Source: a phage. From it: a stretch of DNA of 44,418 nt. The DNA is taken from the sequence record PX502252.1; one strand, 5' to 3'. The position numbers were made by a program, and so were the translations under genes. Of this stretch, positions 3,781 to 44,350 are shown one piece after another. The first letter of the stretch is position 1. Every line of letters starts with the position of its first letter. The notes beneath the pieces are model-generated. The model was not told where the DNA came from, ran no database searches, and saw nothing but the letters and a program-made list of their open reading frames with translations.

Positions 3781-3897
3781 ATCATATTGATTGGAGGTGC
3801 ATTATGCCACGTGATTATGATTCTGATTGGGACTACTATGACTCAATGAATCCAAAACCCGAACGTTCAAATGATTACTACGAAACAGAGGCAATGT

Positions 3898-6408
3898 ATG
3901 AAAACTATTGATTGGAAGAAGGAAGCAGAAGGGCGAATCCTAGTGATGGATGCGGAAGCTAAAGGTCTGCTTGATGCTATCCGCTATGGTCATCGTGAAG
4001 ATGTACACATCATTTGCTGCATGGACTTGCTCACCACTGAGGAGTTCCTCTTCTTCGACCCATATGAGATGCGTGACCCTGAAGCAAGGGAACACCTGAA
4101 AGAGTGGGAAGGACATCAAGATGGAACCTTAGTTGACGGTGTTAACTTCCTGAAGCACTGTGAAGCTATTGTGTCGCAGAACTTCCTAGGATATGACGGT
4201 CTTCTCTTTGAGAAAGCATTCCCTGATATCTGGAAAGGCTTTAATTATACCGAGAAGCGCGGCAAGGGCAGACTCCGTGCCGACCTGTGCCCTATCCGTG
4301 TTGTCGACACGCTGGTGATGAGTCGCCTGTTAAACCCCGATAGACGCCTTCCTCCGCAAGCATATGCCAAAGGTATGGGTAACGTCGCCCCTCACTCAAT
4401 TGAGGCGCACGGCATCCGTATAGGTCGCTATAAACCGGAGAACGAGGACTGGTCTAAACTAACTGACCACATGGTTCACCGTGTACGTGAGGACGTGGCG
4501 ATTGGTCGTGACTTGTTCCTCTGGCTCTTTAACGGGGAATGGATGGAGCACAAACGCCGTGGCGTGAACAAACGTACTGGCCTAGGGATTGAGACAGCCT
4601 TCCACATGGAGTCCATTGTGGCGCTGGAGATGAGCCGTCAGGCAGAGCGTGGATTCCGTCTGGATATTGACAAAGCACTAGCGCGATGCGAAGAACTGGA
4701 CGCTAAGATTGATGAGACAGTCGCAGCGTTCCGTCCGCACATGCCTATGCGTATCAAGTCTAAACCTTTTAAACCGGAAGAAAAGAATGAAGTATGCCAA
4801 CGCGCAAATGAGTATGGAGCTAGCAACAATATACCTACTGTCCTGGACCCCTCACACTTTCTTCATGCCGAGAGACGAGGAGATCGCAAGACAGTATGGA
4901 GTGTCACTACTAAGTCTGGTGATTGGTCGGCTAGTGTCAAGAAAGACTTTCCTCACCTTAGAGGAAACCGTAATGACACGCCAAGCATCAAGTGGATTGG
5001 CGCTTACTCGCCTGTTACTTTCGAAGAGATTCCCTTGGGTAACAGGGATGCAGTTAAGCAAGTGCTCTATGATTATGGATGGAAAGGTGTTGAATTTAAC
5101 GATACCGAGCAAGCGCATCTCGATGAGCACGGAGTGTTACCCAAACCTTGGAGTGGTAAGATAAATGAAAAGTCCCTTACTTTATGGCAAGAAAGAGCCG
5201 CACGTGAAGGTAAAACAGTCCCTGATTGGTGCTTGGGTATCGCTGCATGGTACATACTCGTATCCCGTCGTGGTCAGATACTCAACCGGGGTGACGTTGA
5301 AGCCTTCAACGAGAAGGGAACGTGGCCCTCGCAGGCTGGTGTACGAAAGTGTCGCGGCCTTGTACCTGTAGCATTCAACAAGGAGTTAGGAATCAATGCG
5401 CAGCAATACTACGAGAGGTACGGATGCTGGCCTACGTCAGACAAGGATGACGGAGAGTGGCGTGTGCCAGGCAATGCTGTTACTATTGGCACTAATACGT
5501 TCCGTATGCGTCATCGTAACATTGTTAACATTCCTTCCCGTGGGTTGTATCCTTTACGTGATTTATTCATAGCTAGCAAGGGCAAAATGATACTTGGGTG
5601 TGATGGAGCAGGTCTTGAGCTACGCATCTTAGCCCATTTTATGGGTGATCCTGAGTATATTGATATAGTCTTGAATGGTGATATTCACTCGCACAACCAA
5701 GCAAAGGCTGGATTGCCCTTACGTGACACTGCGAAAACATTTATCTACGCTTTTCTCTACGGATCTGGCATACCAAATCTTGCCGCTGTATGTGGCATGA
5801 CTGAAGCACAGATGAAAGAATGTGTTGCTCGCTTTGAAGTAGAGTTACCTCATTTAGCTAAACTTAAGGAAGGGGTGGAATCCGCTGCTTCAACATTTGG
5901 ATATATGCACGCTGTAGATGGACGCTGGGGACGTGTACGCGTTAGTAATGGTGAGATTAAGATTCACACTTGTCTTAACGTACTGCTACAGATGACTGGC
6001 TCCCTCACTATGAAGTACTCAAAAGTGAAGGCTCTCGCTACTATGCGAAAAGAAGGTGTTGCCCTTGATGAGAATGGAAACCCTGCTATGCTTGTAGATT
6101 ATCATGATGAATGGCAGATGGAAGTACCTGAAGATGAAGTCTTAGAGATTCGCTACTCTATTCCTTCTTCCGAATGGAAAGAGGAAGAGAAACGTCAATA
6201 TCGTGATAGCGAAGGGCGCATGTGGTCTGCACCCAAGATTGTGGAAGGCAATCCTAAAGATGACGAAGAGGTAACAGTACGTCGCAGGTATCATCGTGCT
6301 GGTGAAATCTTAGCTGAATCTATTACGTGGGCTGGAGAATATCTCAAGCTACGTATCCGAATGGATGGCGAATATATGCTTGGATATTCATGGGCTGAAA
6401 CACACTGA
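3898..6408 (+). CDS. DNA polymerase, family A (T7 gp5-like)
   Basis: Exo I motif ILVMDAEAKGL; motif A GCDGAGLELRILAHF; motif B RDTAKTFIYAFLYGSG; motif C YHDEWQ. Start placed at ATG 3898 (AGAGG 7 nt upstream); in-frame ATG 3871 lacks SD. Confidence 0.93.
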   Translation: MKTIDWKKEAEGRILVMDAEAKGLLDAIRYGHREDVHIICCMDLLTTEEFLFFDPYEMRDPEAREHLKEWEGHQDGTLVDGVNFLKHCEAIVSQNFLGYDGLLFEKAFPDIWKGFNYTEKRGKGRLRADLCPIRVVDTLVMSRLLNPDRRLPPQAYAKGMGNVAPHSIEAHGIRIGRYKPENEDWSKLTDHMVHRVREDVAIGRDLFLWLFNGEWMEHKRRGVNKRTGLGIETAFHMESIVALEMSRQAERGFRLDIDKALARCEELDAKIDETVAAFRPHMPMRIKSKPFKPEEKNEVCQRANEYGASNNIPTVLDPSHFLHAERRGDRKTVWSVTTKSGDWSASVKKDFPHLRGNRNDTPSIKWIGAYSPVTFEEIPLGNRDAVKQVLYDYGWKGVEFNDTEQAHLDEHGVLPKPWSGKINEKSLTLWQERAAREGKTVPDWCLGIAAWYILVSRRGQILNRGDVEAFNEKGTWPSQAGVRKCRGLVPVAFNKELGINAQQYYERYGCWPTSDKDDGEWRVPGNAVTIGTNTFRMRHRNIVNIPSRGLYPLRDLFIASKGKMILGCDGAGLELRILAHFMGDPEYIDIVLNGDIHSHNQAKAGLPLRDTAKTFIYAFLYGSGIPNLAAVCGMTEAQMKECVARFEVELPHLAKLKEGVESAASTFGYMHAVDGRWGRVRVSNGEIKIHTCLNVLLQMTGSLTMKYSKVKALATMRKEGVALDENGNPAMLVDYHDEWQMEVPEDEVLEIRYSIPSSEWKEEEKRQYRDSEGRMWSAPKIVEGNPKDDEEVTVRRRYHRAGEILAESITWAGEYLKLRIRMDGEYMLGYSWAETH

Positions 6409-10960: not shown

Positions 10961-11695
10961 TTGGCTATTGTACCATTGCCTGACTCGCCTCATCGAAGTG
11001 TACTGGTAATCCCTGATACTCATGCACCTTATGAGCACCCCGATACCTTAGAGTTCCTTGCAGCAGTGGCAGCACGTTATCGACCAGACACAGTGGTACA
11101 TCTTGGAGATGAGGCAGATAAACATGCCCTGTCATTCCATGATTCGGATCCAAATTTGGACAGTGCTGGCATGGAGTTAGAGAAAGCTCGTGTCTTCATG
11201 CACAAGTTGCACAAGATGTTTCCTGTGATGCGCCTGTGTCACTCTAATCACGGCTCTATGCACTTCCGTAAGGCAAGCGCCAAGGGTATTCCAGTGCAAT
11301 ATCTTCGTACCTACCGAGAAGTCTTCTTCCCGCAGGGAGGTGGCGACCAGTGGGATTGGCAGCATACGCATGTACTTGAGTTGCCGAATGGCGAACAGGT
11401 GGCATTCAAGCATCAACCTGCTGGCTCTGTCCTAGCAGATGCAGCGCATGAGCGTATGAATCTTGTGTGTGGTCACTTGCATGGTAAGATGTCTGTGGAG
11501 TACGCACGTAATACACATGAACAGTATTGGGCTGTGCAGGGTGGCTGCTTAATTGATGAGTCATCCCGTGCATTTGCCTATGGGCGTGAGTCTAAATACA
11601 AGCCAGCATTAGGTTGTGTGGTTATTCTGGAAGGTGTGCCTCATATTGTCCCGATGCAAACCAATAGCGACAACCGTTGGATTGGCAAGATTTAG
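10961..11695 (+). CDS. Calcineurin-like metallophosphoesterase; start codon uncertain (TTG at 10961, no in-frame ATG upstream)
   Basis: VLVIPDTHAPYEHPD (DxH), HLGDEAD (GDxxD), NHG, GHLH motifs; frame open from 10817 without ATG/GTG. Confidence 0.7.
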   Translation: MAIVPLPDSPHRSVLVIPDTHAPYEHPDTLEFLAAVAARYRPDTVVHLGDEADKHALSFHDSDPNLDSAGMELEKARVFMHKLHKMFPVMRLCHSNHGSMHFRKASAKGIPVQYLRTYREVFFPQGGGDQWDWQHTHVLELPNGEQVAFKHQPAGSVLADAAHERMNLVCGHLHGKMSVEYARNTHEQYWAVQGGCLIDESSRAFAYGRESKYKPALGCVVILEGVPHIVPMQTNSDNRWIGKI

Positions 11696-11712
11696 TTGAC
11701 ACTATAGAACAA
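11690..11712 (+). promoter_or_regulatory. SP6-type phage promoter variant (ATTTAGTTGACACTATAGAACAA)
   Basis: Core TGACACTATAGAA conserved; upstream ATTTAG as in SP6 itself. Confidence 0.6.
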
Positions 11713-13365: not shown

Positions 13366-13563
13366 ATGTCTTTTGATTCTATGAAGGCAACTCGTGCTGT
13401 TGAGGTAGCAGAGGCCATCTTCGAAACTCTATCCTGTGGCATGGAAGTGCCATATACTTTACTGGCTGATGCAGAAGAACTTGGTCTTTCTGTAGAAGCT
13501 ATCCAAGAGAAGGTTGAGGAATTATATGGCACAGACGAAGAAGAAACCGACGATTTCATTTGA
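13366..13563 (+). CDS. Small acidic protein (65 aa)
   Basis: AAAGGAGG SD 5 nt upstream of ATG 13366 (ORF track started upstream at 13306). Confidence 0.6.
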   Translation: MSFDSMKATRAVEVAEAIFETLSCGMEVPYTLLADAEELGLSVEAIQEKVEELYGTDEEETDDFI

Positions 13564-13696
13564 AGGGATGGAGATGCTTGAGGTGATCCTCAAGCCTTCC
13601 TCTCCGAAAGTGACTAAGACTCATGAAGAGTTAGTCGTAGATGAAGTGAAGCGTTACATTATGGATTGTGTTAGAGCACAACTGGTGGTTCAATGA
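13526..13696 (+). CDS. Small basic protein (56 aa), overlapping neighbours
   Basis: GAGGAA upstream of ATG 13526; stop overlaps next start (ATGA). Confidence 0.4.
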   Translation: MAQTKKKPTISFEGMEMLEVILKPSSPKVTKTHEELVVDEVKRYIMDCVRAQLVVQ

Positions 13697-14154
13697 TACG
13701 TCCAGCTTCCTTCCTAGATATTCCTGAGATTATTAATCTCGGAGACAAGTATGTAGAAGAAGAAGTCAAGGTAGTGGCACATCATTCTGCGTCGTGGAAT
13801 GCGGAACAAAGTGCAGCTAACCTATGTGCCTCTCTAATCAGAGAGGATTTATTCCTGTGGGTTGCTGTAGATGAAGGGCAGATTGTAGGCTTCCTGTGGG
13901 CTGGTTATCATGACCTAGCACCTTGGACGCCAGTGCGTGTTGCGTCTGATATTCTCTTCTATATTGTACCGGAGAAGCGAGGGACGCTACTTGGTATGCG
14001 ACTAATCAAAGCCTACAAGCAATGGGCTTTTGAGAAAGGGTGTGCTGAGGTACGCATGTCAATAGCCTCTGGTATTAATGAGGAACGTGTTGGACGTATG
14101 TATAGGCGACTAGGCTTTGAGACGTTCGGCACTGTATATAACTTAAAACTTTAA
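13693..14154 (+). CDS. GNAT-family N-acetyltransferase
   Basis: Acetyl-CoA binding-like segment EKRGTLLGMRLIKAY and C-terminal YRRLGFE typical of GNAT fold. Confidence 0.7.
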   Translation: MIRPASFLDIPEIINLGDKYVEEEVKVVAHHSASWNAEQSAANLCASLIREDLFLWVAVDEGQIVGFLWAGYHDLAPWTPVRVASDILFYIVPEKRGTLLGMRLIKAYKQWAFEKGCAEVRMSIASGINEERVGRMYRRLGFETFGTVYNLKL

Positions 14155-14163
14155 GGAGATAAC

Positions 14164-14373
14164 ATGGGTGTCGTGAAGAAGGCATTTAAAGCAATTGGTC
14201 TTGCATCTGATACGCCGAAAATTGAGGCAGCGAAAGTGCCAGCACAACAACTAGAACGTCAGCCTGAGACGGAAGCAGAAGATGTGACGCTGGGTCAGGA
14301 CGAGGACACCACAACCACTTCTCGTGGTAAGCGTGGGTTAGTTCGCCCTGTAGCATCAAGCTTAGGAGTATAA
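14164..14373 (+). CDS. Hypothetical protein (69 aa) upstream of portal
   Basis: AAGGAGA SD; position analogous to small T7 virion genes 6.7/7.3. Confidence 0.6.
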   Translation: MGVVKKAFKAIGLASDTPKIEAAKVPAQQLERQPETEAEDVTLGQDEDTTTTSRGKRGLVRPVASSLGV

Positions 14374-16830: not shown

Positions 16831-16853
16831 ATTTACTGGACACTATAGAAGGG
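16831..16853 (+). promoter_or_regulatory. SP6-type phage promoter (ATTTACTGGACACTATAGAAGGG) upstream of major capsid gene
   Basis: Full consensus match. Confidence 0.8.
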
Positions 16854-18120: not shown

Positions 18121-18156
18121 GCCCTATCTACCTTGCGTAGGTAGGGTTCTTTTGTT
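18121..18156 (+). terminator. Stem-loop plus T-run terminator after capsid gene (GCCCTATCTACC...GGTAGGGTTCTTTTG)
   Basis: Same architecture as 9030-9061. Confidence 0.7.
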
Positions 18157-18167
18157 TAGGAGGATTC

Positions 18168-18908
18168 ATGCCTTTAATTCAAAATACAAGTGATGTTGGG
18201 CGTATCATGGCTGAGGCTTCCTTCAATATCATTGATAGTAAGCTGGAGGCAGTCAACCTGTGTATGCGAGCTATTGGTCGTGAGGGTGTGGATTCCCTTG
18301 ACTCTGGCGACTTAGATGCTGAAGATGCTAACAAGATTATTGATATTGTCTCACAACGCTTCCAATACAACAAGGGTGGTGGTTGGTGGTTTAACAGAGA
18401 ACCTAATTGGCTACTTAAACCTGACACAAATGGTGAAGTGAACATGCCTAACAATTGTCTTGCTGTTCTCCAATGTTATGCTCTAGGTGAACGTAAAGTA
18501 CCTATGACTATACGCGCAGGCAAGTTGTACTCTGTTTGGAATCACACTTTCGATATGTCAAAGTATGTGAATCAGGATGGGCGTATTAGGTTGACTCTGG
18601 TAACATTACTGCCTTTCGAGCATCTACCTGCAAGTGTAATGCAGGCCATTGCCTATCAGGCTGCCGTAGAGTTTATTGTGTCTAAAGATGCAGATAAGAC
18701 TAAACTACAAGCACACCAGCAGATTGCAGCACAATTGATGATTGATGTTCAGTCAGAGCAGTCTTCTCAGAAGAGACTTAATATGCTTGTACATAACCCC
18801 ACTCAGCGCAACTTTGGCATCATGGCAGGTGGATCTCAGAATGTACCAGCGTTCTCCTATTCACCTTATGACACTTACCCTGTAAGGCCGTGGGAGGTTG
18901 ATAGATAA
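18168..18908 (+). CDS. Tail tubular protein A, T7 gp11-like
   Basis: 246 aa; synteny after capsid. Confidence 0.85.
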   Translation: MPLIQNTSDVGRIMAEASFNIIDSKLEAVNLCMRAIGREGVDSLDSGDLDAEDANKIIDIVSQRFQYNKGGGWWFNREPNWLLKPDTNGEVNMPNNCLAVLQCYALGERKVPMTIRAGKLYSVWNHTFDMSKYVNQDGRIRLTLVTLLPFEHLPASVMQAIAYQAAVEFIVSKDADKTKLQAHQQIAAQLMIDVQSEQSSQKRLNMLVHNPTQRNFGIMAGGSQNVPAFSYSPYDTYPVRPWEVDR

Positions 18909-21313
18909 TGGAAGTACAAGGTTCTTTAGGTCGTCAGATTCAAGGTATTAGCCAACAACCAGCAGCAGTACGGTTAGACGGTCAATGTACTGATATGGTT
19001 AATATGGTTCCAGATGTAGTCAACGGTACACAATCCCGCATGGGTAGCACTCATATTGCAAAGCTAATGGAAGCAGGCAGTGACAATATGGCAACACATC
19101 ACTATAGAAGAGGGGATGGGGTAGAAGAGTATTTCTTTGTCATGAAGAAAGGTAGCGTGCCAGAAATATTTGACAAAGAAGGGCGTAAATGCACTGTGAT
19201 CTCTCAGGATGCACCTATGGCTTATCTTGCTGAGGTTGTGAACCCGAGAGAAGACGTGCAGTTCATGACTATTGCTGATGTAACATTTATGCTTAACAGG
19301 CGTAAAGTAGTGAAAGCTCGTAGTGATAAGTCTCCAAGTGTGGGAAACAAGGCTATTGTGTTTTCTGCCTACGGGCAGTATGGCACTTCGTACACTATCT
19401 CTATTAACGGCGAGCAAGCGGCGACCTTCAAAACTCCAGATGGAAGTGACCCTAGTCATGTAGAACAGATTCGCACTGAGTACCTAGCCACTAAGCTATA
19501 TGAGAGTTTACAGACATGGAGTAAAGCGTCACAGTACACCTTGCAAAGAGAAGGCACTAGTATCTACATTGAAACTAAAGATGGTAGTGATTTCACTATT
19601 ACTACCACAGATGGGGCCAAGGGTAAGGACTTGGTTGCCATAAAGAACCGAGTGTCATCTACAGACTTACTTCCCTCAAGAGCACCAGAAGGGTACAAGG
19701 TACAGGTGTGGCCTACAGGGAGTAAACCAGAATCTAGGTATTGGCTAGAGGCTGTACCTAAAGAAGGAGGTAACTTAGTTGCTTGGCAAGAAACTATTGC
19801 AGCAGATGTGTTACTTGGATTTGATAAAGATACTATGCCCTATATTATAGAGCGTACAGGTATTGTAGGAGGTGTGGCGCAGTTTAAGATAAGGCACGGT
19901 GATTGGGAAGATCGTAAGGTAGGAGATGACCTGACTAACCCTATGCCTTCTTTTATTGATGAAGATGTACCACAGGCGATTGGCGGTATGTTCATGGTGC
20001 AGAACCGTCTTTGTGTTACAGCAGGCGAAGCCGTCATAGCAACTAGGACTTCTCACTTCTTTGACTTCTTTCGTTTCTCCGCAGTATCTGCTGTGGCAAC
20101 AGACCCTTTCGATATTTTCTCAGATGCAAGTGAGGTATACCAGCTTAAACATGCAGTAACCCTAGATGGGGCAACAGTATTATTCGCAGATACATCTCAG
20201 TTCATACTTCCGGGGGATAAAGTATTAGAGAAATCTAATGTCATACTCAAGCCTGCTACAACTTTCGAAGTTGACAACAGGGTGCCACCTGTGGCAACTG
20301 GTGAGTCCGTGATGTTTGCTACAAGTGAGGGTGCTTACTCTGGTGTGCGTGAGTTTTATACCGATTCTTACAGCGACACTAAGAAGGCGCAGGCTGTTAC
20401 TAGTCATGTTAACAAGTTGATAGAAGGTAATATCACTCATATGGTAGCGAGCACTAATATCAACAGATTACTTGTAGTAACAGACAAAGACCCTAATATT
20501 GTCTATTGCTACGACTGGTTGTGGCAAGGGACAGATCGTGTACAGTCTGCATGGCATAAGTGGGTGTGGCCTAAAGATACTTTGATTCGCTCTATGGTCT
20601 ATTCCTCAGAGATGTTATATCTCATTGTAGAACGAGGTAATACTGGTTTGTATCTAGAGGTTATGGATATGGGTGATGCTCTTACTTATGGTTTAGTTGA
20701 CAGAATTAGACTGGATAGGCAAGCAGAGTTGATCTTCACCTATGATGCTAATACAGACCAGTGGGTTTCTAATGAGTTGCCTTGGAAGCCTACTGACCCA
20801 GCCTTACTTGAGTGTGTGATAATTCAAGGGTGGCCTGCTTATATTGGTGGTTCTTTTCATTTTGAATATGATGAAGCCAGTAATAAGCTAATTACAACTT
20901 TTGATTTATCAGAAGAAGGCACTAATGCTATAGCTGTCGTAGGGCAGTTGTATCAGCAGGAGTTTGAGCCAACACAGGTCGTTATTCGAGATAACCAAGA
21001 TAGAGTGTCCTACATAGATGTGCCAGTGGTAGGCCTGGTTCACCTTAACTTGGATAAATACCCTGACTTTGAAGTTCATATCAAGAACTTAAAGAGTGGC
21101 AAATTAAGAAAGGCTTTGGCATCTAACAGGAAAGGCGGGGCACTTAATAATGTTGTTGGTTATGTCAAGCCAGAAGAGGGGTCATTCAAATTTCCACTAA
21201 GATCCCTTAGTACAGATACTGTTTATCGTATCATTGTTAACTCCCCTCATACATTCCAACTCAGGGATATTGAGTGGGAAGGTTCGTATAACCCAACTAA
21301 GAGGAGGGTATAA
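18908..21313 (+). CDS. Tail tubular protein B, T7 gp12-like
   Basis: 801 aa; synteny. Confidence 0.88.
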   Translation: MEVQGSLGRQIQGISQQPAAVRLDGQCTDMVNMVPDVVNGTQSRMGSTHIAKLMEAGSDNMATHHYRRGDGVEEYFFVMKKGSVPEIFDKEGRKCTVISQDAPMAYLAEVVNPREDVQFMTIADVTFMLNRRKVVKARSDKSPSVGNKAIVFSAYGQYGTSYTISINGEQAATFKTPDGSDPSHVEQIRTEYLATKLYESLQTWSKASQYTLQREGTSIYIETKDGSDFTITTTDGAKGKDLVAIKNRVSSTDLLPSRAPEGYKVQVWPTGSKPESRYWLEAVPKEGGNLVAWQETIAADVLLGFDKDTMPYIIERTGIVGGVAQFKIRHGDWEDRKVGDDLTNPMPSFIDEDVPQAIGGMFMVQNRLCVTAGEAVIATRTSHFFDFFRFSAVSAVATDPFDIFSDASEVYQLKHAVTLDGATVLFADTSQFILPGDKVLEKSNVILKPATTFEVDNRVPPVATGESVMFATSEGAYSGVREFYTDSYSDTKKAQAVTSHVNKLIEGNITHMVASTNINRLLVVTDKDPNIVYCYDWLWQGTDRVQSAWHKWVWPKDTLIRSMVYSSEMLYLIVERGNTGLYLEVMDMGDALTYGLVDRIRLDRQAELIFTYDANTDQWVSNELPWKPTDPALLECVIIQGWPAYIGGSFHFEYDEASNKLITTFDLSEEGTNAIAVVGQLYQQEFEPTQVVIRDNQDRVSYIDVPVVGLVHLNLDKYPDFEVHIKNLKSGKLRKALASNRKGGALNNVVGYVKPEEGSFKFPLRSLSTDTVYRIIVNSPHTFQLRDIEWEGSYNPTKRRV

Positions 21314-22038
21314 TGGCAGTAATGGCAACAGTAGGATCAAGCCTAGCCAGTATGTTCTCCAGTAGTGCAGGTGCTGCGGCTGCTAGTAGTGCTGCTGGTA
21401 GTGCCGCCGCTGGGAGTGGGGGTGTGCTTGGCTCTGTCGGAAGTTTCTTAGGTGGAAGCTCTGCTGGCTTTTCTAATGCAGGTTTGTTGTCTGCTGGACT
21501 ACAAGGCTTAAACTTACTAGGCGGCCTATTCGGTGGACGAGATACCGCTAAGGCTATGCAGAAAGCACAAGAAGAAGAGTGGAGACAAAGGCTAGAAGCC
21601 ACACGTGAAGCCTATTCTTCTGTGGCAAATGCAGAACGGTCTGCTGCAAAGCAATATCATTCTGACTTCCTTAATAATCAAATTTCACTGATGCAGCAAC
21701 GAGCGCAAGTTGCAGTAATGGCAGGTGCTACTGGAACAGGTGGTAGCTCCATCACATCCATGCTCAATGATTTGACGGCAGAAGGTGGTCGTAATCAGTC
21801 AACCATTATAGATAATTATGAGAATCAGCAAATCAACTTTGCCAACCAGTTGAAGTCTATTCAACGCAGTGGACAGATGCAGATGCGAACGTTTGACAAA
21901 CCTTCCGCTTTGGGTACTTTGGTGAAAGGTATACCAAGCCTTGCATCTTCCTATGTCACCGGAAGTAAAGCAGGTATGGCGCTTGGCAAGGCTATCACTG
22001 AGTCTCGTACTTATTCATCAGGAACTAGAGGAGTTTAA
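21313..22038 (+). CDS. Internal virion protein (Gly/Ala/Ser-rich N-terminus)
   Basis: 241 aa; low-complexity AAAASSAAGSAAAGSGG region; position of T7 gp13/14. Confidence 0.75.
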   Translation: MAVMATVGSSLASMFSSSAGAAAASSAAGSAAAGSGGVLGSVGSFLGGSSAGFSNAGLLSAGLQGLNLLGGLFGGRDTAKAMQKAQEEEWRQRLEATREAYSSVANAERSAAKQYHSDFLNNQISLMQQRAQVAVMAGATGTGGSSITSMLNDLTAEGGRNQSTIIDNYENQQINFANQLKSIQRSGQMQMRTFDKPSALGTLVKGIPSLASSYVTGSKAGMALGKAITESRTYSSGTRGV

Positions 22039-32349: not shown

Positions 32350-32631
32350 ATGGCTAATGATTATAGTAATCAGCCTTTAACTGGTCGTTATGACCGTAAA
32401 CAGATTACACCAACTAGTGAAGCATTAATGCTCCCTGTTGTTACAGAGGAGTCTATTAAGAAGAAAGCCAATGTTATCAATGATGCAACCAAATCTGGTA
32501 AACAGAAAGCAGCAATGGTATGTCGTCCTGTAGGTGGCACTCTTGAGATTGCCATTGCTACTGGTAGCAAAGAGGATGCAGACTGGTTGTCTGTTAAAAT
32601 GGATGGCGTTGGCCTTATTACACCAGCTTAA
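32350..32631 (+). CDS. Paralog-family small protein 1 (93 aa)
   Basis: AAGGAG SD; shares IN...SGKQKAAMV...IAIATGS...W core with next two ORFs. Confidence 0.7.
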   Translation: MANDYSNQPLTGRYDRKQITPTSEALMLPVVTEESIKKKANVINDATKSGKQKAAMVCRPVGGTLEIAIATGSKEDADWLSVKMDGVGLITPA

Positions 32632-32648: not shown

Positions 32649-32936
32649 ATGTCTAAGTATGGCGATGCAGGTACTACTACTGGTCAGGCTTTTCGTGTAA
32701 AAGCAGTACAAACTATTGCAACTGCAATCCCTATGCCTATCGTGGCAGAAGCTGACCTTAAAAAGAAAGATCATCCAATTAATATTGAACACCTATCTGG
32801 TAAGCAGAAAGGTGCTATGGTGGTTGTAGATAAGGGAGATAATAGCCTTTATATTGCTATTGCACGTGGTTCTGCACCAACTGACCAGTGGGATGTAACT
32901 ACTATGGAAGCTGTACCTGTAACACCAGGAGCTTAA
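32649..32936 (+). CDS. Paralog-family small protein 2 (95 aa)
   Basis: AAGGAGAAG SD; INIEHLSGKQKGAMVVV...IAIARGSAPTDQW. Confidence 0.7.
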   Translation: MSKYGDAGTTTGQAFRVKAVQTIATAIPMPIVAEADLKKKDHPINIEHLSGKQKGAMVVVDKGDNSLYIAIARGSAPTDQWDVTTMEAVPVTPGA

Positions 32937-32937
32937 T

Positions 32938-33627
32938 ATGCTGGGAGTAACAGGACAACGCAATAAGAATGTAGCCACCAAAGTAGTGGCTGATTTAGCT
33001 ACTGCTGCTACTGTCGAGGAATTACGAGATCAACATAGCTCTATTAACCGTGCTGACCTTTCTGGTAAACAAGAAGGTTCCGCTGTTATTGTTAAGAAAG
33101 AAGATGGGAATTATTCTATCTTTGTAGCAACAGGAAGCAAGCCGACTGATGTGTGGAAAGAGTTGTCTCCAACAATACCAGAGCAAGAGATGCCTGCTGA
33201 ATATATTGATATGATTGATGTTCAAATTCATCAAGATTCTGCAAGCAACTTACGCATAGACTCTTCTCGCACTAGTTTAATACAAACACCAATGTGGGAT
33301 ACTGAAGGTGAGTTGTTATTCCGTAATACACTAAGTGCAACATGTTCTTGTACTATTCTTGTTGATGGTGCGTCTGGTGTTCGTCAGGATTTTACTTTTA
33401 AGATTAATGGACTTTTAGAGCAGGAAGAGCAGTATTATGATATTGACACACTTATGTGCTCTATTCACTCTGCAACAGCAACTAATGGCCTTACCTTGTG
33501 TATGCCAGATGCTAAAAGTGCAAAGACTAATAAAATGGTAGTTAAGATCGACACTATGCAGTCATTAGCTATGAGCTTTGATCTTAACTTCCTTGTAGAA
33601 TGGACGTCACCAACGAGGTTACTATAA
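32938..33627 (+). CDS. Paralog-family protein 3 (229 aa), conserved N-terminal domain plus C-terminal extension
   Basis: INRADLSGKQEGSAVIV...IFVATGSKPTDVW then about 140 aa unique region. Confidence 0.7.
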   Translation: MLGVTGQRNKNVATKVVADLATAATVEELRDQHSSINRADLSGKQEGSAVIVKKEDGNYSIFVATGSKPTDVWKELSPTIPEQEMPAEYIDMIDVQIHQDSASNLRIDSSRTSLIQTPMWDTEGELLFRNTLSATCSCTILVDGASGVRQDFTFKINGLLEQEEQYYDIDTLMCSIHSATATNGLTLCMPDAKSAKTNKMVVKIDTMQSLAMSFDLNFLVEWTSPTRLL

Positions 33628-41722: not shown

Positions 41723-44350
41723 ATGCAAGATTTACACGCTATCCAGCTTCAGCTTGAAGAGGAAATGTTTAACGGCGGTATTCGTCGCTTTGAAGCAGAC
41801 CAACAACGCCAGATTGCATCAGGTAATGAATCCGATACGGCATGGAATCGTCGCCTATTGTCGGAACTTATCGCACCTATGGCTGAAGGTATTCAGGCTT
41901 ATAAGGAAACCTACGAAGGCAAGAAAGGACGCGCACCGCGTGCACTGGCTTTCATTAACTGCGTAGAGAACGAAGTGGCAGCATATATCACGATGAAGAT
42001 CGTAATGGATATGCTTAACACTGATGTAACCTTGCAAGCCATAGCAATGAATGTAGCTGATCGCATCGAAGACCAAGTACGCTTCAGCAAGCTGGAAGGT
42101 CACGCCGCCAAATACTTTGAGAAAGTAAAGAAGTCGCTTAAGGCAAGTAAGACTAAATCATATCGCCATGCGCACAACGTAGCGGTGGTGGCTGAGAAGT
42201 CAGTAGCTGACCGTGACTCTGATTTCTCTCGCTGGGAAGCATGGCCTAAAGATACCTTGCTACAAATCGGTATGACCTTGCTAGAAATACTGGAGAATAG
42301 TGTATTCTTCAATGGTCATCCTGTTTTCCTCCGCACCTTGCGCACTAATGGTGGTAAGCATGGTGTTTACTACTTACAGACCAGTGAACATGTAGGGAAA
42401 TGGATTACAGCATTCAAAGAACATGTAGCGCAACTAAGCCCAGCGTATGCACCTTGCGTTATACCTCCACGTCCGTGGGTTTCTCCTTTTAATGGTGGAT
42501 TTCACACTGAGAAGGTGGCAAGCCGCATCCGTCTAGTTAAAGGAAACCGCGAGCACGTCCGCAAGTTAACCAAAAAGCAGATGCCAGCGGTTTACAAGGC
42601 TGTTAACGCTTTGCAGGAGACTAAATGGCAGGTTAATAAAGAAGTCTTGCAGGTAGTAGAAGACGTTATCCGTCTCGACCTTGGCTATGGTGTACCTTCA
42701 TTTAAACCACTCATCGACCGCGAGAATAAGCCAGCTAACCCAGTGCCGTTAGAATTCCAGCACTTGCGAGGCCGTGAGTTGAAAGAAATGTTAACGCCGG
42801 AACAATGGCAAGCCTTCATTAACTGGAAAGGTGAATGTACCAAGCTGTATACCGCAGAGACTAAGCGCGGCAGCAAGTCGGCGGCAACCGTTCGCATGGT
42901 AGGGCAGGCCCGTAAATACAGCCAGTTTGACGCTATTTATTTTGTATATGCACTGGATAGCCGTTCACGCGTTTATGCGCAATCTAGCACGCTCTCACCG
43001 CAATCAAACGACTTAGGCAAGGCGCTCCTACGGTTTACCGAAGGGCAGACTATAAACAGCGCTGAGGCGCTTAAGTGGTTTTTGGTGAACGGGGCGAATA
43101 ACTGGGGTTGGGATAAGAAAACCTTTGACGTGCGCACCGCTAACGTGTTGGATGGTGAATTCCAAGACATGTGCCGCGATATTGCAGCCGACCCGCTGAC
43201 CTTTACTCAATGGGTAAATGCTGATTCTCCTTACGGTTTCCTTGCATGGTGCTTTGAATACGCGCGTTATCTAGATGCGCTGGATGAAGGCACGCAAGAC
43301 CAATTCATGACGCACCTACCAGTACACCAAGATGGTAGCTGTTCCGGCATCCAGCACTACAGCGCTATGCTACGCGACGAAGTCGGTGCTAAGGCGGTAA
43401 ACCTTAAACCATCCAACGAGCCGCAAGACATTTATGGCGCGGTTGCTCAGGTTGTTATCCAGAAGAATTACGCCTACATGAATGCAGATGATGCGGAAAC
43501 TTTCACATCTGGAAGTGTAACCCTTACAGGTGCAGAACTGCGCAGCATGGCTAACGCGTGGGATATGATTGGGATCACTCGCGGCCTGACCAAGAAACCC
43601 GTTATGACCCTGCCATACGGCTCCACACGCTTAACCTGCCGTGAATCGGTGATTGATTATATCGTTGATTTGGAAGAAAAAGAGGCACAACGAGCTATCG
43701 CCGAAGGGCGGACGGCGAATCCTGTGCACCCTTTTGATAATGACCGTAAAGACTACCTGACACCGGGCGCGGCATATAACTATATGACTGCTCTCATCTG
43801 GCCTTCCATCTCTGAGGTTGTGAAAGCTCCGATAGTTGCCATGAAAATGATTCGCCAGCTTGCACGTTTCGCAGCTAAGAGGAACGAAGGATTAGAATAC
43901 CCCTTACCGACTGGCTTCATCTTGCAACAAAAGATAATGGCAACCGATATGCTTCGCGTATCCACTTGCTTGATGGGTGAAATCAAGATGAGTCTCCAGA
44001 TTGAAACAGATGTAGTTGATGAAACGGCAATGATGGGTGCGGCTGCTCCTAACTTCGTGCACGGTCATGATGCTAGCCACCTGATTCTGACTGTATGTGA
44101 CCTAGTGGATAAAGGTATTACATCCATTGCAGTCATCCATGATTCTTTCGGCACTCATGCAGGACGTACCGCAGACCTGCGGGATAGCTTAAGGGCAGAA
44201 ATGGTTAAGATGTATCAAGACCATAATGCCTTGCAAAACCTGCTGGATGTGCACGAAGAACGTTGGTTAGTAGATACCGGAATCCAAGTACCAGAGCAAG
44301 GAGAGTTTGACCTTAACGAAATCTTAGTATCTGACTATTGCTTCGCATAA
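41723..44350 (+). CDS. Single-subunit DNA-directed RNA polymerase, SP6-type
   Basis: 875 aa; N-terminus [32 protein letters not shown] and long stretches match SP6 RNAP as I recall it; motifs [14 protein letters not shown] and VHDSFGTH; cognate promoters throughout genome. Confidence 0.97.

What the first reader, a model, noticed from the sequence alone, without database searches (positions are those of the whole stretch)
13693..14154. GNAT acetyltransferase in the replication/late junction
Not part of the canonical T7 core. Phage GNAT enzymes can modify host or phage targets (for example acetylation of host proteins or aminoglycosides), so this is a candidate host-takeover or accessory function.
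Basis: partly seen in the sequence, partly recalled or inferred. Interest (0 to 1): 0.45.

Follow-up and report, generated by a model that had tools for sequence, protein, structure and literature searches.

The report
Conserved pre-portal GNAT acetyltransferase gene
The gene is a real acetyltransferase (GNAT) of an SP6/K1E-like phage that is already annotated in relatives; it is a conserved, strongly selected gene next to the virion-assembly genes rather than a sporadic accessory gene, and what it acetylates is still unknown.

Summary
The ORF at 13693-14154 (+, 153 aa) exists exactly as described. It passes Pfam's GNAT threshold, and its AlphaFold model (pLDDT 90) has the complete GNAT fold.

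The window is a Vectrevirus (SP6/K1E-like) genome, and the gene is the orthologue of K1E gene 27, which GenBank already annotates as an acetyltransferase.

It does not behave like a loose accessory gene:
- dN/dS against K1E is 0.05.
- The block GNAT, small T7-gp7.3-like protein, portal, scaffold, capsid recurs in several Autographiviridae lineages.
- The same family (phrog_1249) lies between tail tubular B and the first internal virion protein in other podophages. That is the slot of T7 gp13.
- LUZ19 Rac, the GNAT that triggers cleavage of host RNA polymerase alpha, occupies the same pre-portal slot.
- T7 gp7 ("host range") occupies it too, and its model is a degenerate GNAT fold.

It scores far below the curated cut-offs of AAC(6'), ArsN1 and RimI.

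My best reading is an active acetyl-CoA-dependent N-acetyltransferase, co-transcribed with the portal gene, that acts on a protein during virion morphogenesis. A Rac-like host target is the main rival. The substrate is unproven. Interest is modest.

The parts
13693..14154 (+). GNAT N-acetyltransferase gene (153 aa), orthologue of K1E gene 27
   Evidence: ORF. Pfam Acetyltransf_1 at 41 bits against a gathering score of 20.7. phrog_1249 at 1e-54. AF2 model pLDDT 90 with a full GNAT fold. 98% identical to the NTNC80A 'N-acetyltransferase domain-containing protein'. dN/dS 0.05.
13969..13995 (+). Motif A region (residues 93-101, PEKRGTLLG), the b4-a3 loop that binds the pyrophosphate of acetyl-CoA in GNATs. 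It is the variant R96-G-T-L-L-G101, with Leu where the consensus Q/R-x-x-G-x-G/A has Gly.
   Evidence: It aligns with RGKGLG of PA4866. R96 is present in 66 of 66 family members, G97 in 60 of 66, and G/A101 in 63 of 66.
14068..14118 (+). b5-a4 region and motif B (residues 126-142, SGINEERVGRMYRRLGF)
   Evidence: S126, G127, I128 and G141 are conserved in at least 94% of members. Y137 is Tyr in 49 and Phe in 16 of 66. Helix a4 spans residues 130-139 in the model.
13684..13688 (+). Shine-Dalgarno-like GGTGG, 4 nt before the ATG
   Evidence: Read directly from the sequence.
13514..13696 (+). Upstream 60-aa ORF (K1E gene 26 homologue, phrog_6507). Its stop overlaps the GNAT start (ATGA), which suggests translational coupling.
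14164..14373 (+). Downstream 69-aa ORF (K1E gene 28 homologue), related to the T7 gp7.3 tail-channel/adsorption protein. Its AAGGAG ribosome-binding site overlaps the GNAT stop codon.
   Evidence: phrog_9033 at 3e-16 and phrog_1320 at 2e-9. phrog_1320 is the family of T7 gp7.3. The role of gp7.3 is taken from PMC11784390.
14378..15925 (+). Portal (head-tail connector) gene, the first large structural gene. It follows the GNAT and small-ORF pair in all relatives examined.
11690..11710 (+). Nearest upstream SP6-type phage promoter (ATTTAGTTGACACTATAGAAC). No further promoter match occurs until 16831.
   Evidence: Eight matches were found where 0 are expected by chance.
18121..18147 (+). First strong terminator-like hairpin downstream (11-bp stem plus T run), after the major capsid gene. 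On this basis the GNAT gene is predicted to share transcripts with the ligase, portal and scaffold genes.
   Evidence: The transcript structure is inferred, not measured.

Best explanation
The gene encodes a small, single-domain, catalytically competent GNAT. It would use acetyl-CoA (or a similar acyl-CoA) to N-acylate an amine.

It is the SP6/K1E-group member of a podophage-wide family (phrog_1249) whose genes always lie inside the virion-morphogenesis block. In SP6-like, Colwellvirinae, Gajwadongvirus and Rhizobium-phage genomes the gene sits just before a gp7.3-like tail-channel protein and the portal. In cobaviruses, Yersinia phage YeP6 and an Acinetobacter phage it sits between tail tubular protein B and the first internal (ejection) virion protein, which is the position of T7 gp13 (IVP-A).

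I infer that it is a non-structural morphogenetic enzyme. It would be made from the same phage-RNAP transcripts as the portal and scaffold, and it would acetylate a phage protein destined for the tail channel or ejectosome (a gp7.3-like or gp14/15/16-like protein) so that particles become fully infective.

What is shown: the ORF, the fold, family membership, conserved motifs, purifying selection, the synteny, and the two alternative positions.

What is inferred: enzymatic activity, the timing of expression, and above all the identity of the substrate.
For: GNAT identity:
- Pfam hit above threshold.
- AF2 model pLDDT 90.2 with the full GNAT topology.
- 834 PDB fold matches at E<=1e-3; all 50 listed are GNAT-fold proteins.

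Competence as an enzyme:
- R96 is invariant.
- The motif A loop, S126-G127-I128 and the motif B sequence (M/L)(Y/F)xRLGF are conserved across 66 family members.
- dN/dS is 0.05.

Fixed neighbourhood:
- GNAT, small ORF, portal, scaffold, capsid is found in K1E, Era103, Vp670, Njord, ECBP5 and RHEph27.
- In a portal-anchored IMG/VR sample, 12 of 62 loci with enough upstream sequence carry it. These include all 11 of the best-scoring portal relatives.
- Six more loci carry a very divergent GNAT-like ORF upstream of the portal (hhalign E=6.6e-6).

The same family in the IVP-A slot:
- YeP6 has tubular A (phrog_394), tubular B (phrog_376), GNAT (phrog_1249, E=1.5e-44), then an internal virion protein (phrog_418).
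- Acinetobacter phage MD-2021a and Roseobacter phage CRP-5 have the GNAT in the same place.
- R3, D9, E23, G66, R96 and G141 are shared by members from both positions.
- The closest viral structures to the model include the GNATs of CRP-4 (TM 0.87) and VpV262 (TM 0.76).

Literature:
- T7 IVP-A (gp13) is a non-structural protein required for morphogenesis and 'matches as an acetyltransferase'. The phiRIO-1 group carries an acetyltransferase gene in that slot (PMC4819975).
- The cobavirus GNAT 'could correspond to gp13 from T7' (PMC6775973).

Complementary layout:
- In the window, LUZ19, Vp670 and RHEph27, tubular B is followed directly by the gp14-like protein, with no gp13-slot gene.
- T7, which has gp13, keeps only a degenerate GNAT fold (gp7, 'host range') in the pre-portal slot.

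Expression:
- There is no phage promoter between 11690 and 16831, and no strong terminator before 18121.

Absence from virions:
- gp7 and gp13 are not in the list of proteins detected in the virion proteome of a T7-like phage (PMC4517105). This fits an enzyme or assembly factor rather than a structural protein.
Against: - No acetylated virion protein is known for any of these phages, and no experiment exists on SP6/K1E gp27. Ten literature searches found none.
- The only member of this positional class with experimental data, LUZ19 Rac, acts on the host: RNAP alpha is cleaved and global lysine acetylation rises (PMC7552054).
- Gene position is circumstantial evidence.
- Many marine relatives with the same small ORFs before the portal have no recognisable GNAT, so the enzyme is not universally required.
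- Sequence links from this family to T7 gp7 and gp13 are not significant (hhalign E=0.04 and 0.019). Those links rest on fold, position and published HHpred statements.
- Motif A departs from the consensus, with Leu at the fourth position.
- The best structural matches in PDB are small-molecule enzymes: the PAT/ArsN/BAR family at TM 0.75-0.80, and the polyamine acetyltransferase DpA.
Confidence: 0.4

Rival explanations
1. Rac-like host takeover. The GNAT would acetylate one or more host proteins in mid-infection and so shut down host functions. In LUZ19, Rac indirectly causes removal of the RNAP alpha C-terminal domain. This would favour transcription by the phage RNAP.
For: - LUZ19 gp28 (Rac) is a GNAT in the same slot: small ORF, GNAT, small virion protein, portal.
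- Rhizobium phage RHEph27 has a phrog_1249 GNAT in a phiKMV-type layout, directly after the RNAP gene.
- Rac's only other significant PHROG hit is phrog_1249 (E=5e-4).
- hhalign of this family against Rac gives E=7e-5 to 1e-4.
- An HMM of the broad family finds Rac proteins at E=1e-5 to 9e-4.
- Experimental data on Rac are in PMC7552054.
Against: - BLASTP finds no similarity to Rac, and Rac belongs to a different PHROG (phrog_3986).
- Rac lacks the family's motif B region.
- In the Rac paper, the GNAT at the same position in LKA1 does not cause alpha cleavage, so the effect is genus-specific.
- Host-takeover genes of these phages normally lie in the early region. This family appears only inside virion modules, including the gp13 slot far from any early gene.
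Confidence: 0.25
2. Small-molecule acetyltransferase. The enzyme would acetylate a free amine such as a polyamine, an amino acid or amino-acid analogue, or an aminoglycoside. It could, for example, adjust the polyamine pool during DNA packaging or detoxify a compound.
For: - The closest solved structures and sequences are small-molecule enzymes: PA4866 (E=5e-5), the PAT/ArsN/BAR family at TM 0.75-0.80, and the polyamine acetyltransferase DpA at TM about 0.7.
- The conserved acidic residues D9, E22-E24 and D86 would suit a cationic acceptor.
Against: - All NCBIfam equivalog hits are far below their cut-offs: AAC(6') 27 against 140, ArsN1 about 20 against 170-210, mycothiol synthase 20 against 163.
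- GNAT fold similarity does not predict substrate.
- A detoxifying or metabolic enzyme would not be expected to keep a fixed place among virion-assembly genes in phages of very different hosts.
Confidence: 0.12
3. Assembly chaperone with little or no catalysis. The GNAT fold would serve as a scaffold that helps load ejection or tail-channel proteins, as may be the case for T7 gp7 and gp13.
For: - The T7 gp7 model is a GNAT fold without helix a4 and with a degenerate motif A, yet the gene is retained.
- gp13 is described as an assembly protein (PMC4819975).
Against: Unlike gp7, the window protein keeps the whole cofactor-binding apparatus: an invariant R96, the motif A loop, a4 and motif B, all under strong constraint. 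That is hard to explain without cofactor binding.
Confidence: 0.1
4. Anti-defence enzyme or GNAT toxin-like factor. Examples would be acetylation of a defence protein, as AcrVA5 does, or of aminoacyl-tRNA, as TacT and AtaT do.
For: Phage and prophage GNATs of this kind exist (AcrVA5 is cited in PMC7552054). GNAT toxins appear among the fold matches of T7 gp7.
Against: - There is no DUF1778-type antitoxin neighbour.
- The gene shows none of the variable, island-like distribution typical of anti-defence genes.
- It is conserved in position across hosts from Escherichia to Rhizobium.
Confidence: 0.05

Closest known systems
K1E gene 27 / SP6-group 'acetyltransferase' (PHROG phrog_1249)
   Same: Orthologue. 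Its DNA is about 83% identical to K1E gene 27 over the coding sequence, and the protein is 98% identical to the NTNC80A protein. It has the same length and the same neighbours: ligase, gp25, gp26, GNAT, gp28, portal.
   Different: Nothing of substance differs. The family has an annotation but no experimentally known function.
LUZ19/phiKMV Rac (gp28), a GNAT that triggers cleavage of host RNAP alpha (PMC7552054)
   Same: Both have the GNAT fold, a similar size (157 against 153 aa) and the same genomic slot directly before a small virion protein and the portal. There is weak but significant profile similarity.
   Different: BLAST detects no similarity. Rac is in a different PHROG (3986) and has a different C-terminal third with no canonical motif B. 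The host is Pseudomonas. The alpha-cleavage phenotype is restricted to Phikmvvirus and is untested here.
T7 gp13 (IVP-A, Pfam PF11090) and the acetyltransferase genes at the IVP-A position of phiRIO-1/SIO1/cobavirus-type podophages (PMC4819975, PMC6775973)
   Same: The IVP-A-position GNATs of CRP-5, YeP6 and MD-2021a belong to the same PHROG as the window protein and share its conserved residues. In the literature, gp13 is a non-structural morphogenesis protein that matches acetyltransferases.
   Different: In the window the gene lies before the portal, not after tail tubular B. T7 gp13 itself has no significant sequence match to this family.
T7 gp7 ('host range' protein, phrog_2746)
   Same: It occupies the same slot, immediately before gp7.3 and the portal. 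Its predicted structure is a GNAT-like fold. There are reciprocal weak PHROG hits with the Rac family.
   Different: It is 133 aa, lacks helix a4 and motif B, and has a degenerate motif A. It has no Pfam or NCBIfam hit. Its sequence similarity to the window family is not significant (E=0.04-0.08).
Phosphinothricin / methionine-sulfoximine / arsinothricin N-acetyltransferases (PA4866, BAR, ArsN1)
   Same: These are the best sequence and structure matches among solved structures: E=5e-5 and TM up to 0.80.
   Different: Identity is only 19-25%. NCBIfam ArsN1 scores are about 20 bits against cut-offs of 170-210. The genomic context is entirely different.

Membership tests
GNAT superfamily (Pfam Acetyltransf_1, PF00583) | Match to the family HMM above the curated gathering score | tested here: met
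   41.1 bits against 20.7, E=2.4e-10. Acetyltransf_7 (36.6 against 27) and Acetyltransf_10 (24.0 against 23.6) also pass.
GNAT superfamily (Pfam Acetyltransf_1, PF00583) | Fold b1-a1-a2-b2-b3-b4-a3-b5-a4-b6(-b7) | tested here: met
   The AF2 model (pLDDT 90.2) has exactly this order of elements. There are 834 PDB matches at E<=1e-3, with TM up to 0.80.
GNAT superfamily (Pfam Acetyltransf_1, PF00583) | Motif A, Q/R-x-x-G-x-G/A, in the b4-a3 loop | tested here: inconclusive
   The sequence is R96-G97-T98-L99-L100-G101. Arg is invariant and the last Gly/Ala is present in 63 of 66 members, but the central Gly is replaced by Leu, Met or Arg throughout the family.
GNAT superfamily (Pfam Acetyltransf_1, PF00583) | Binds acetyl-CoA and transfers the acyl group to an amine | not testable with these tools
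   This needs biochemistry: ITC or DSF with acyl-CoAs, and a CoA-release assay.
PHROG phrog_1249 (podophage acetyltransferase) | Full-length match to the family profile | tested here: met
   E=1.2e-54, residues 1-151. Relatives from Era103, Vp670, Njord, ECBP5, RHEph27, CRP-5, YeP6 and MD-2021a all match it.
Rac (LUZ19 gp28, phrog_3986) | Sequence membership in the Rac family | tested here: not met
   BLASTP shows no similarity. The window protein does not hit phrog_3986 even at E<=1. Only superfamily-level profile similarity is seen.
Rac (LUZ19 gp28, phrog_3986) | Position directly before the first small virion protein and the portal | tested here: met
   Searches compared.
Rac (LUZ19 gp28, phrog_3986) | Expression causes cleavage of host RNAP alpha and growth arrest | not testable with these tools
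   This needs expression in E. coli followed by an RpoA western blot or mass spectrometry.
T7 IVP-A (gp13, Pfam Phage_T7_Gp13 PF11090) | Match to PF11090 / phrog_308 | tested here: not met
   The window protein hits neither family. hhalign against gp13 gives E=0.019-0.08, which is not significant.
T7 IVP-A (gp13, Pfam Phage_T7_Gp13 PF11090) | Gene located between tail tubular B and IVP-B | tested here: not met
   In the window, tubular B (18908-21313) is followed directly by the gp14-like gene at 21313-22038. Other phrog_1249 members do occupy that slot.
Aminoglycoside 6'-N-acetyltransferases (NCBIfam AAC(6') models) | Score above the curated cut-off of any AAC(6') model | tested here: not met
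   The best score is 27 bits against a cut-off of 140. The others score 15-22 bits against cut-offs of 225-325.
PAT/ArsN1 amino-acid-analogue N-acetyltransferases | Score above the curated cut-off | tested here: not met
   20.4-20.7 bits against 170-210, despite the best structural similarity in PDB.
RimI (ribosomal protein S18 N-terminal acetyltransferase, TIGR01575) | Score above the curated cut-off | tested here: not met
   20.6 bits against 86.4.
GNAT toxins of type II toxin-antitoxin systems (TacT/AtaT) | Adjacent DUF1778-type antitoxin gene | tested here: not met
   Neither flanking small ORF gives a significant Pfam hit or any DUF1778 hit. Their PHROG families are phage-specific.

The most novel reading that the evidence does not exclude
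Podophages may share an ancient 'morphogenetic acyltransferase'. One GNAT family would sit either before the portal or in the gp13 (IVP-A) slot, and it would acylate a tail-channel or ejection protein as a step needed for infectious particles. On this reading T7 gp7 ('host range') and gp13 are degenerate remnants, and the action of Rac on host RNA polymerase is a derived extra function. The SP6/K1E-group enzyme described here would be a tractable, fully canonical representative in which to find the substrate.
Probability: 0.25. Interest if true: 0.6.

Novelty: already known. Interest (0 to 1): 0.3.

Why it matters
As a sequence feature this is ordinary. It is an annotated acetyltransferase gene that nearly every SP6/K1E-like phage carries.

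It matters only through what remains unknown. No function has been assigned to this family, yet it is conserved, strongly constrained and always embedded in the virion-assembly block of short-tailed phages. It is linked by position and fold to three poorly understood proteins: LUZ19 Rac, T7 gp7 and T7 gp13.

If the enzyme modifies an ejection or tail-channel protein, that would reveal a covalent maturation step in podophage assembly. It would also explain two old T7 genes. If instead it acts like Rac, it would extend acetylation-driven host shut-off to enterobacterial phages used in therapy.

Either way, the gene is not a resistance determinant: it matches no AAC, ArsN or PAT model. That is relevant when therapeutic phages are screened for safety.

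Tried and rejected
- **Aminoglycoside, arsinothricin or RimI assignment.** All NCBIfam scores are far below their cut-offs. Rejected.
- **Direct homology to Rac by BLASTP.** None was found. Only profile-level similarity exists.
- **Homologues of Rac and T7 gp7.** The search for homologous proteins returned 1 and 11 proteins. The search for related loci returned only near-identical loci. The Rac and gp7 profiles therefore stayed shallow.
- **Sequence links to T7 gp7 and gp13.** hhalign of the window family against T7 gp7 and gp13, including a broadened 206-sequence profile, gave E=0.02-0.08. The alignments were collinear but not significant.
- **Exhaustive profile search.** It showed a large family: 1212 representatives at E<=1e-10. 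The ten clusters I looked up carried no informative names, and no genomic context could be fetched for them.
- **GNAT toxin-antitoxin idea.** No antitoxin-like neighbour is present.
- **DNA-modifying (Mom-like) GNAT.** I considered this only from the literature list. The protein is a canonical small acetyl-CoA-type GNAT and nothing supports the idea, so I did not pursue it.
- **Terminator-like hairpin inside the ORF (13829-13846).** It is weak, and such sites were found at only about twice the number seen in shuffled sequence. I treat it as chance.
- **Literature.** Ten searches found no study of the SP6/K1E/K1-5 protein itself.
Full report
**Observation.** It runs from ATG 13693 to TAA 14154 on the + strand and encodes 153 aa. 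It has a GGTGG ribosome-binding site 4 nt upstream. Its start overlaps the stop of the preceding 60-aa ORF by 4 bases (ATGA). The AAGGAG site of the following 69-aa ORF overlaps its own stop codon.

- Pfam Acetyltransf_1 matches at 41.1 bits, against a gathering score of 20.7. Acetyltransf_7 and Acetyltransf_10 also pass.
- PHROGs places it in phrog_1249 'acetyltransferase' at E=1e-54.
- An AlphaFold2 model built on 42 homologues has mean pLDDT 90.2 and the textbook GNAT order b1-a1-a2-b2-b3-b4-a3-b5-a4-b6-b7.
- Foldseek finds 834 PDB chains at E<=1e-3. All 50 listed are GNAT-fold proteins, with TM up to 0.80.

**Identity of the phage and the gene.**
- The surrounding 2 kb is 85-94% identical to Vectrevirus genomes such as NTNC80A, LL11 and K1E. 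The window is a circularly permuted SP6/K1E-like genome, not T7 itself.
- The gene is the orthologue of K1E gene 27, which RefSeq already labels 'acetyltransferase'. Its neighbours are ligase (24), 25, 26, GNAT (27), 28, portal (29), scaffold and capsid.
- The protein is 98% identical to a deposited, annotated protein. As a feature it is therefore already known.

**Is it a loose accessory gene?** The evidence says no.
- dN/dS against K1E is 0.053 at dS of about 1.
- tblastn finds it in 250 phage records. The records listed are almost all 35-50 kb podophages, with hosts from Escherichia, Klebsiella, Salmonella, Proteus and Erwinia to Vibrio, Pseudomonas syringae, Rhizobium and Roseobacter relatives.
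- The block GNAT, small ORF, portal, scaffold, capsid is the same in Era103 (Molineuxvirinae), Vp670 and Njord (Colwellvirinae) and ECBP5 (Gajwadongvirus). Rhizobium phage RHEph27 keeps the GNAT before the portal but with three small ORFs between them.
- I anchored a sample of 80 IMG/VR loci on the portal gene. Of 62 loci with at least 1.2 kb upstream, 12 carry a family member just upstream of the portal. These include all 11 of the best-scoring portal relatives.
- Six further loci carry a very divergent GNAT-like ORF about 750 nt upstream (hhalign E=6.6e-6).
- Most marine relatives have only small ORFs there, so the gene is characteristic of a large clade but not universal.
- An exhaustive profile search found 1212 cluster representatives at E<=1e-10, nearly all 144-165 aa. 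Of ten I looked up, none had an informative name. The largest contigs (58 kb to 2.3 Mb) belonged to fused double-length forms.

**Transcription context.**
- Eight SP6-type promoters match in the window where none is expected by chance.
- The nearest upstream promoter is at 11690 and the next is at 16831, before the capsid gene.
- The first strong terminator-like hairpin is at 18121-18147, after the capsid gene.
- The GNAT gene is therefore predicted to be transcribed by the phage RNAP on the same RNAs as the ligase, portal and scaffold genes. This is inferred from sequence, not measured.

**What else sits in this slot?** In LUZ19 (phiKMV-like) the layout is gp27 (83 aa), gp28 GNAT (157 aa), gp29 (a small virion protein), then the portal. 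gp28 is Rac. According to PMC7552054:
- its expression causes cleavage of host RNAP alpha at Q244-E245 and raises lysine acetylation;
- it requires its acetyl-CoA pocket;
- it is not itself a protease;
- the GNAT at the same position in LKA1 does not cause the cleavage.

Rac shows no BLASTP similarity to the window protein and belongs to another PHROG (3986). However:
- its only other significant PHROG hit is phrog_1249 (E=5e-4);
- hhalign gives E=7e-5 to 1e-4;
- an HMM of the broadened family finds Rac proteins at E=1e-5 to 9e-4;
- RHEph27 has a phrog_1249 GNAT in the phiKMV-type layout, right after the RNAP gene.

In T7 the order is 6.7, 7, 7.3, 7.7 (HNH), 8 (portal).
- The window's 69-aa ORF belongs to phrog_1320, the gp7.3 family. 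gp7.3 is a tail-channel protein needed for adsorption-competent particles (PMC11784390).
- T7 gp7, labelled only 'host range', has no Pfam or NCBIfam match.
- Its AF2 model (pLDDT 90.6) is b1-a1-a2-b2-b3-b4-a3-b5-b6, a GNAT fold without a4. It has 248 PDB matches at E<=1e-3, and all 50 listed are GNAT-fold proteins.
- Its motif A is degenerate.
- Sequence similarity to the window family is not significant (E=0.04-0.08), although reciprocal weak PHROG hits link gp7 and Rac.

The statement 'not part of the canonical T7 core' therefore needs qualifying. T7 has a GNAT-fold protein, apparently degenerate, in the same place.

**A second position for the same family.** Members of phrog_1249 also lie between tail tubular protein B and the first internal virion protein.
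- Yersinia phage YeP6 has tubular A (phrog_394), tubular B (phrog_376), GNAT (phrog_1249, E=1.5e-44), then an internal virion protein (phrog_418).
- Acinetobacter phage MD-2021a and Roseobacter phage CRP-5 have the GNAT in the same place.
- These proteins share R3, D9, E23, G66, R96, L104 and G141 with the pre-portal members.
- The closest viral structure models to the window protein include the CRP-4 and VpV262 GNATs.
- This is the slot of T7 gp13 (IVP-A). Hardies et al. (PMC4819975) describe gp13 as a non-structural protein that is required for morphogenesis and 'matches as an acetyltransferase'. They note acetyltransferase genes at this position in the phiRIO-1 group.
- Bischoff et al. (PMC6775973) equate the cobavirus GNAT with gp13.
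- I could not confirm a gp13 link by sequence.
- In the window, LUZ19, Vp670 and RHEph27 there is no gene in the gp13 slot.
- gp13 homologues detectable by tblastn were found in 1197 records, and those listed are T7-like phages of 37-41 kb.
- In a T7-like virion proteome, neither gp7 nor gp13 is among the proteins reported as detected (PMC4517105).

**Mechanism.**
- Family-wide conservation covers the cofactor side: an invariant R96, the motif A loop R-G-T-L-L-G with Leu in place of the central Gly, S126-G127-I128, and motif B (M/L)(Y/F)xRLGF.
- It also covers a set of acidic and aromatic residues on the acceptor side: D9, Y20, E23, W69, W78, D86 and Y90.
- This is the pattern of an active enzyme with a specific acceptor that is probably cationic.
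- The closest solved relatives are small-molecule enzymes (PA4866, PAT/ArsN/BAR, DpA) and N-terminal acetyltransferases (Naa60, a RimI-like protein). Every curated NCBIfam model scores far below its cut-off, so no substrate can be transferred by homology.

I weigh the context most heavily. The family occurs in two alternative places, and both lie inside the virion-assembly block, next to proteins that are ejected through the tail. On that basis my preferred reading (about 0.4) is a non-structural morphogenetic acetyltransferase acting on a tail-channel or ejection protein. A Rac-like host target comes next (about 0.25), then a small-molecule substrate (about 0.12), a mostly non-catalytic chaperone (about 0.1) and an anti-defence role (about 0.05). 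None of these was tested directly.

**Verdict.**
- The 'GNAT' interpretation is supported. The 'accessory, host-takeover or aminoglycoside' interpretation is only partly supported.
- The feature itself is already annotated in public genomes, so novelty is low and interest modest.
- The useful by-products are the two-position pattern of phrog_1249, the positional link to Rac, and the GNAT-like fold of T7 gp7. Together they turn 'what do gp7, gp13, Rac and gp27 do?' into a single testable question.

Noticed in passing
L009 2131-2532 (T7 gene 7; protein P0044): The T7 'host range' protein gp7 has no Pfam or NCBIfam family. Even so, it is confidently predicted (pLDDT 90.6) to adopt a GNAT-like fold that lacks helix a4 and has a degenerate motif A. 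It occupies the same slot before gp7.3 and the portal as the window GNAT and LUZ19 Rac. Its family also has an invariant Cys/His-rich set (D72, H74, C113, H121) that might bind a metal.
   Followed up: partly
window 32350-32631, 32649-32936, 32938-33627 (+): Three consecutive paralogous ORFs (93, 95 and 229 aa) lie after the terminase gene. They share an N-terminal domain of about 80 aa (TGQ...IN...LSGKQKGAMV...IAIATGSKPTDxW). All three hit phrog_2725, labelled 'acetyl-CoA acetyltransferase', but none has a Pfam hit. The label, which has been copied into published phage annotations (PMC4837284), looks unfounded.
   Followed up: partly
window 14164-14373 (+): The 69-aa ORF between the GNAT and the portal is a short relative of the T7 gp7.3 tail-channel/adsorption protein (phrog_1320, E=2e-9). 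It is Lys-rich at the N-terminus and ends in a basic motif, RGKRGLVRPV. It is a candidate substrate for, or partner of, the GNAT.
   Followed up: partly
window 2418, 3197, 6477, 8523, 11690, 16831, 34546, 40451 (+): Eight SP6-type phage promoters with the core ATTTAC(T/C)GGACACTATAGAAG, where 0 are expected by chance. There is none between the ligase operon promoter (11690) and the capsid promoter (16831).
   Followed up: partly
whole window: The window is a circular permutation of a Vectrevirus genome. The primase/helicase gene is at 482-2470 and the DNA polymerase gene at 3871-6408. The phage RNA polymerase gene (41723-44350) is at the right end instead of near the left end.
   Followed up: no
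L057, L058, L076, L083, L087, L093 (ORFs about 720-770 nt upstream of the portal): A clade of uncultured podophages carries a very divergent GNAT-like ORF of 166-202 aa, some copies with a basic N-terminal extension. It is separated from the portal by three small ORFs. hhalign against the broadened family profile gives E=6.6e-6.
   Followed up: partly
window 13829-13846 (+): A 7-bp hairpin followed by a T-rich stretch inside the GNAT coding sequence was flagged as terminator-like. It is weak and probably chance.
   Followed up: no
window 18121-18147 (+): A strong terminator-like hairpin (11-bp stem plus T run) lies immediately after the major capsid gene. It is analogous in position to T7 Tphi.
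   Followed up: no
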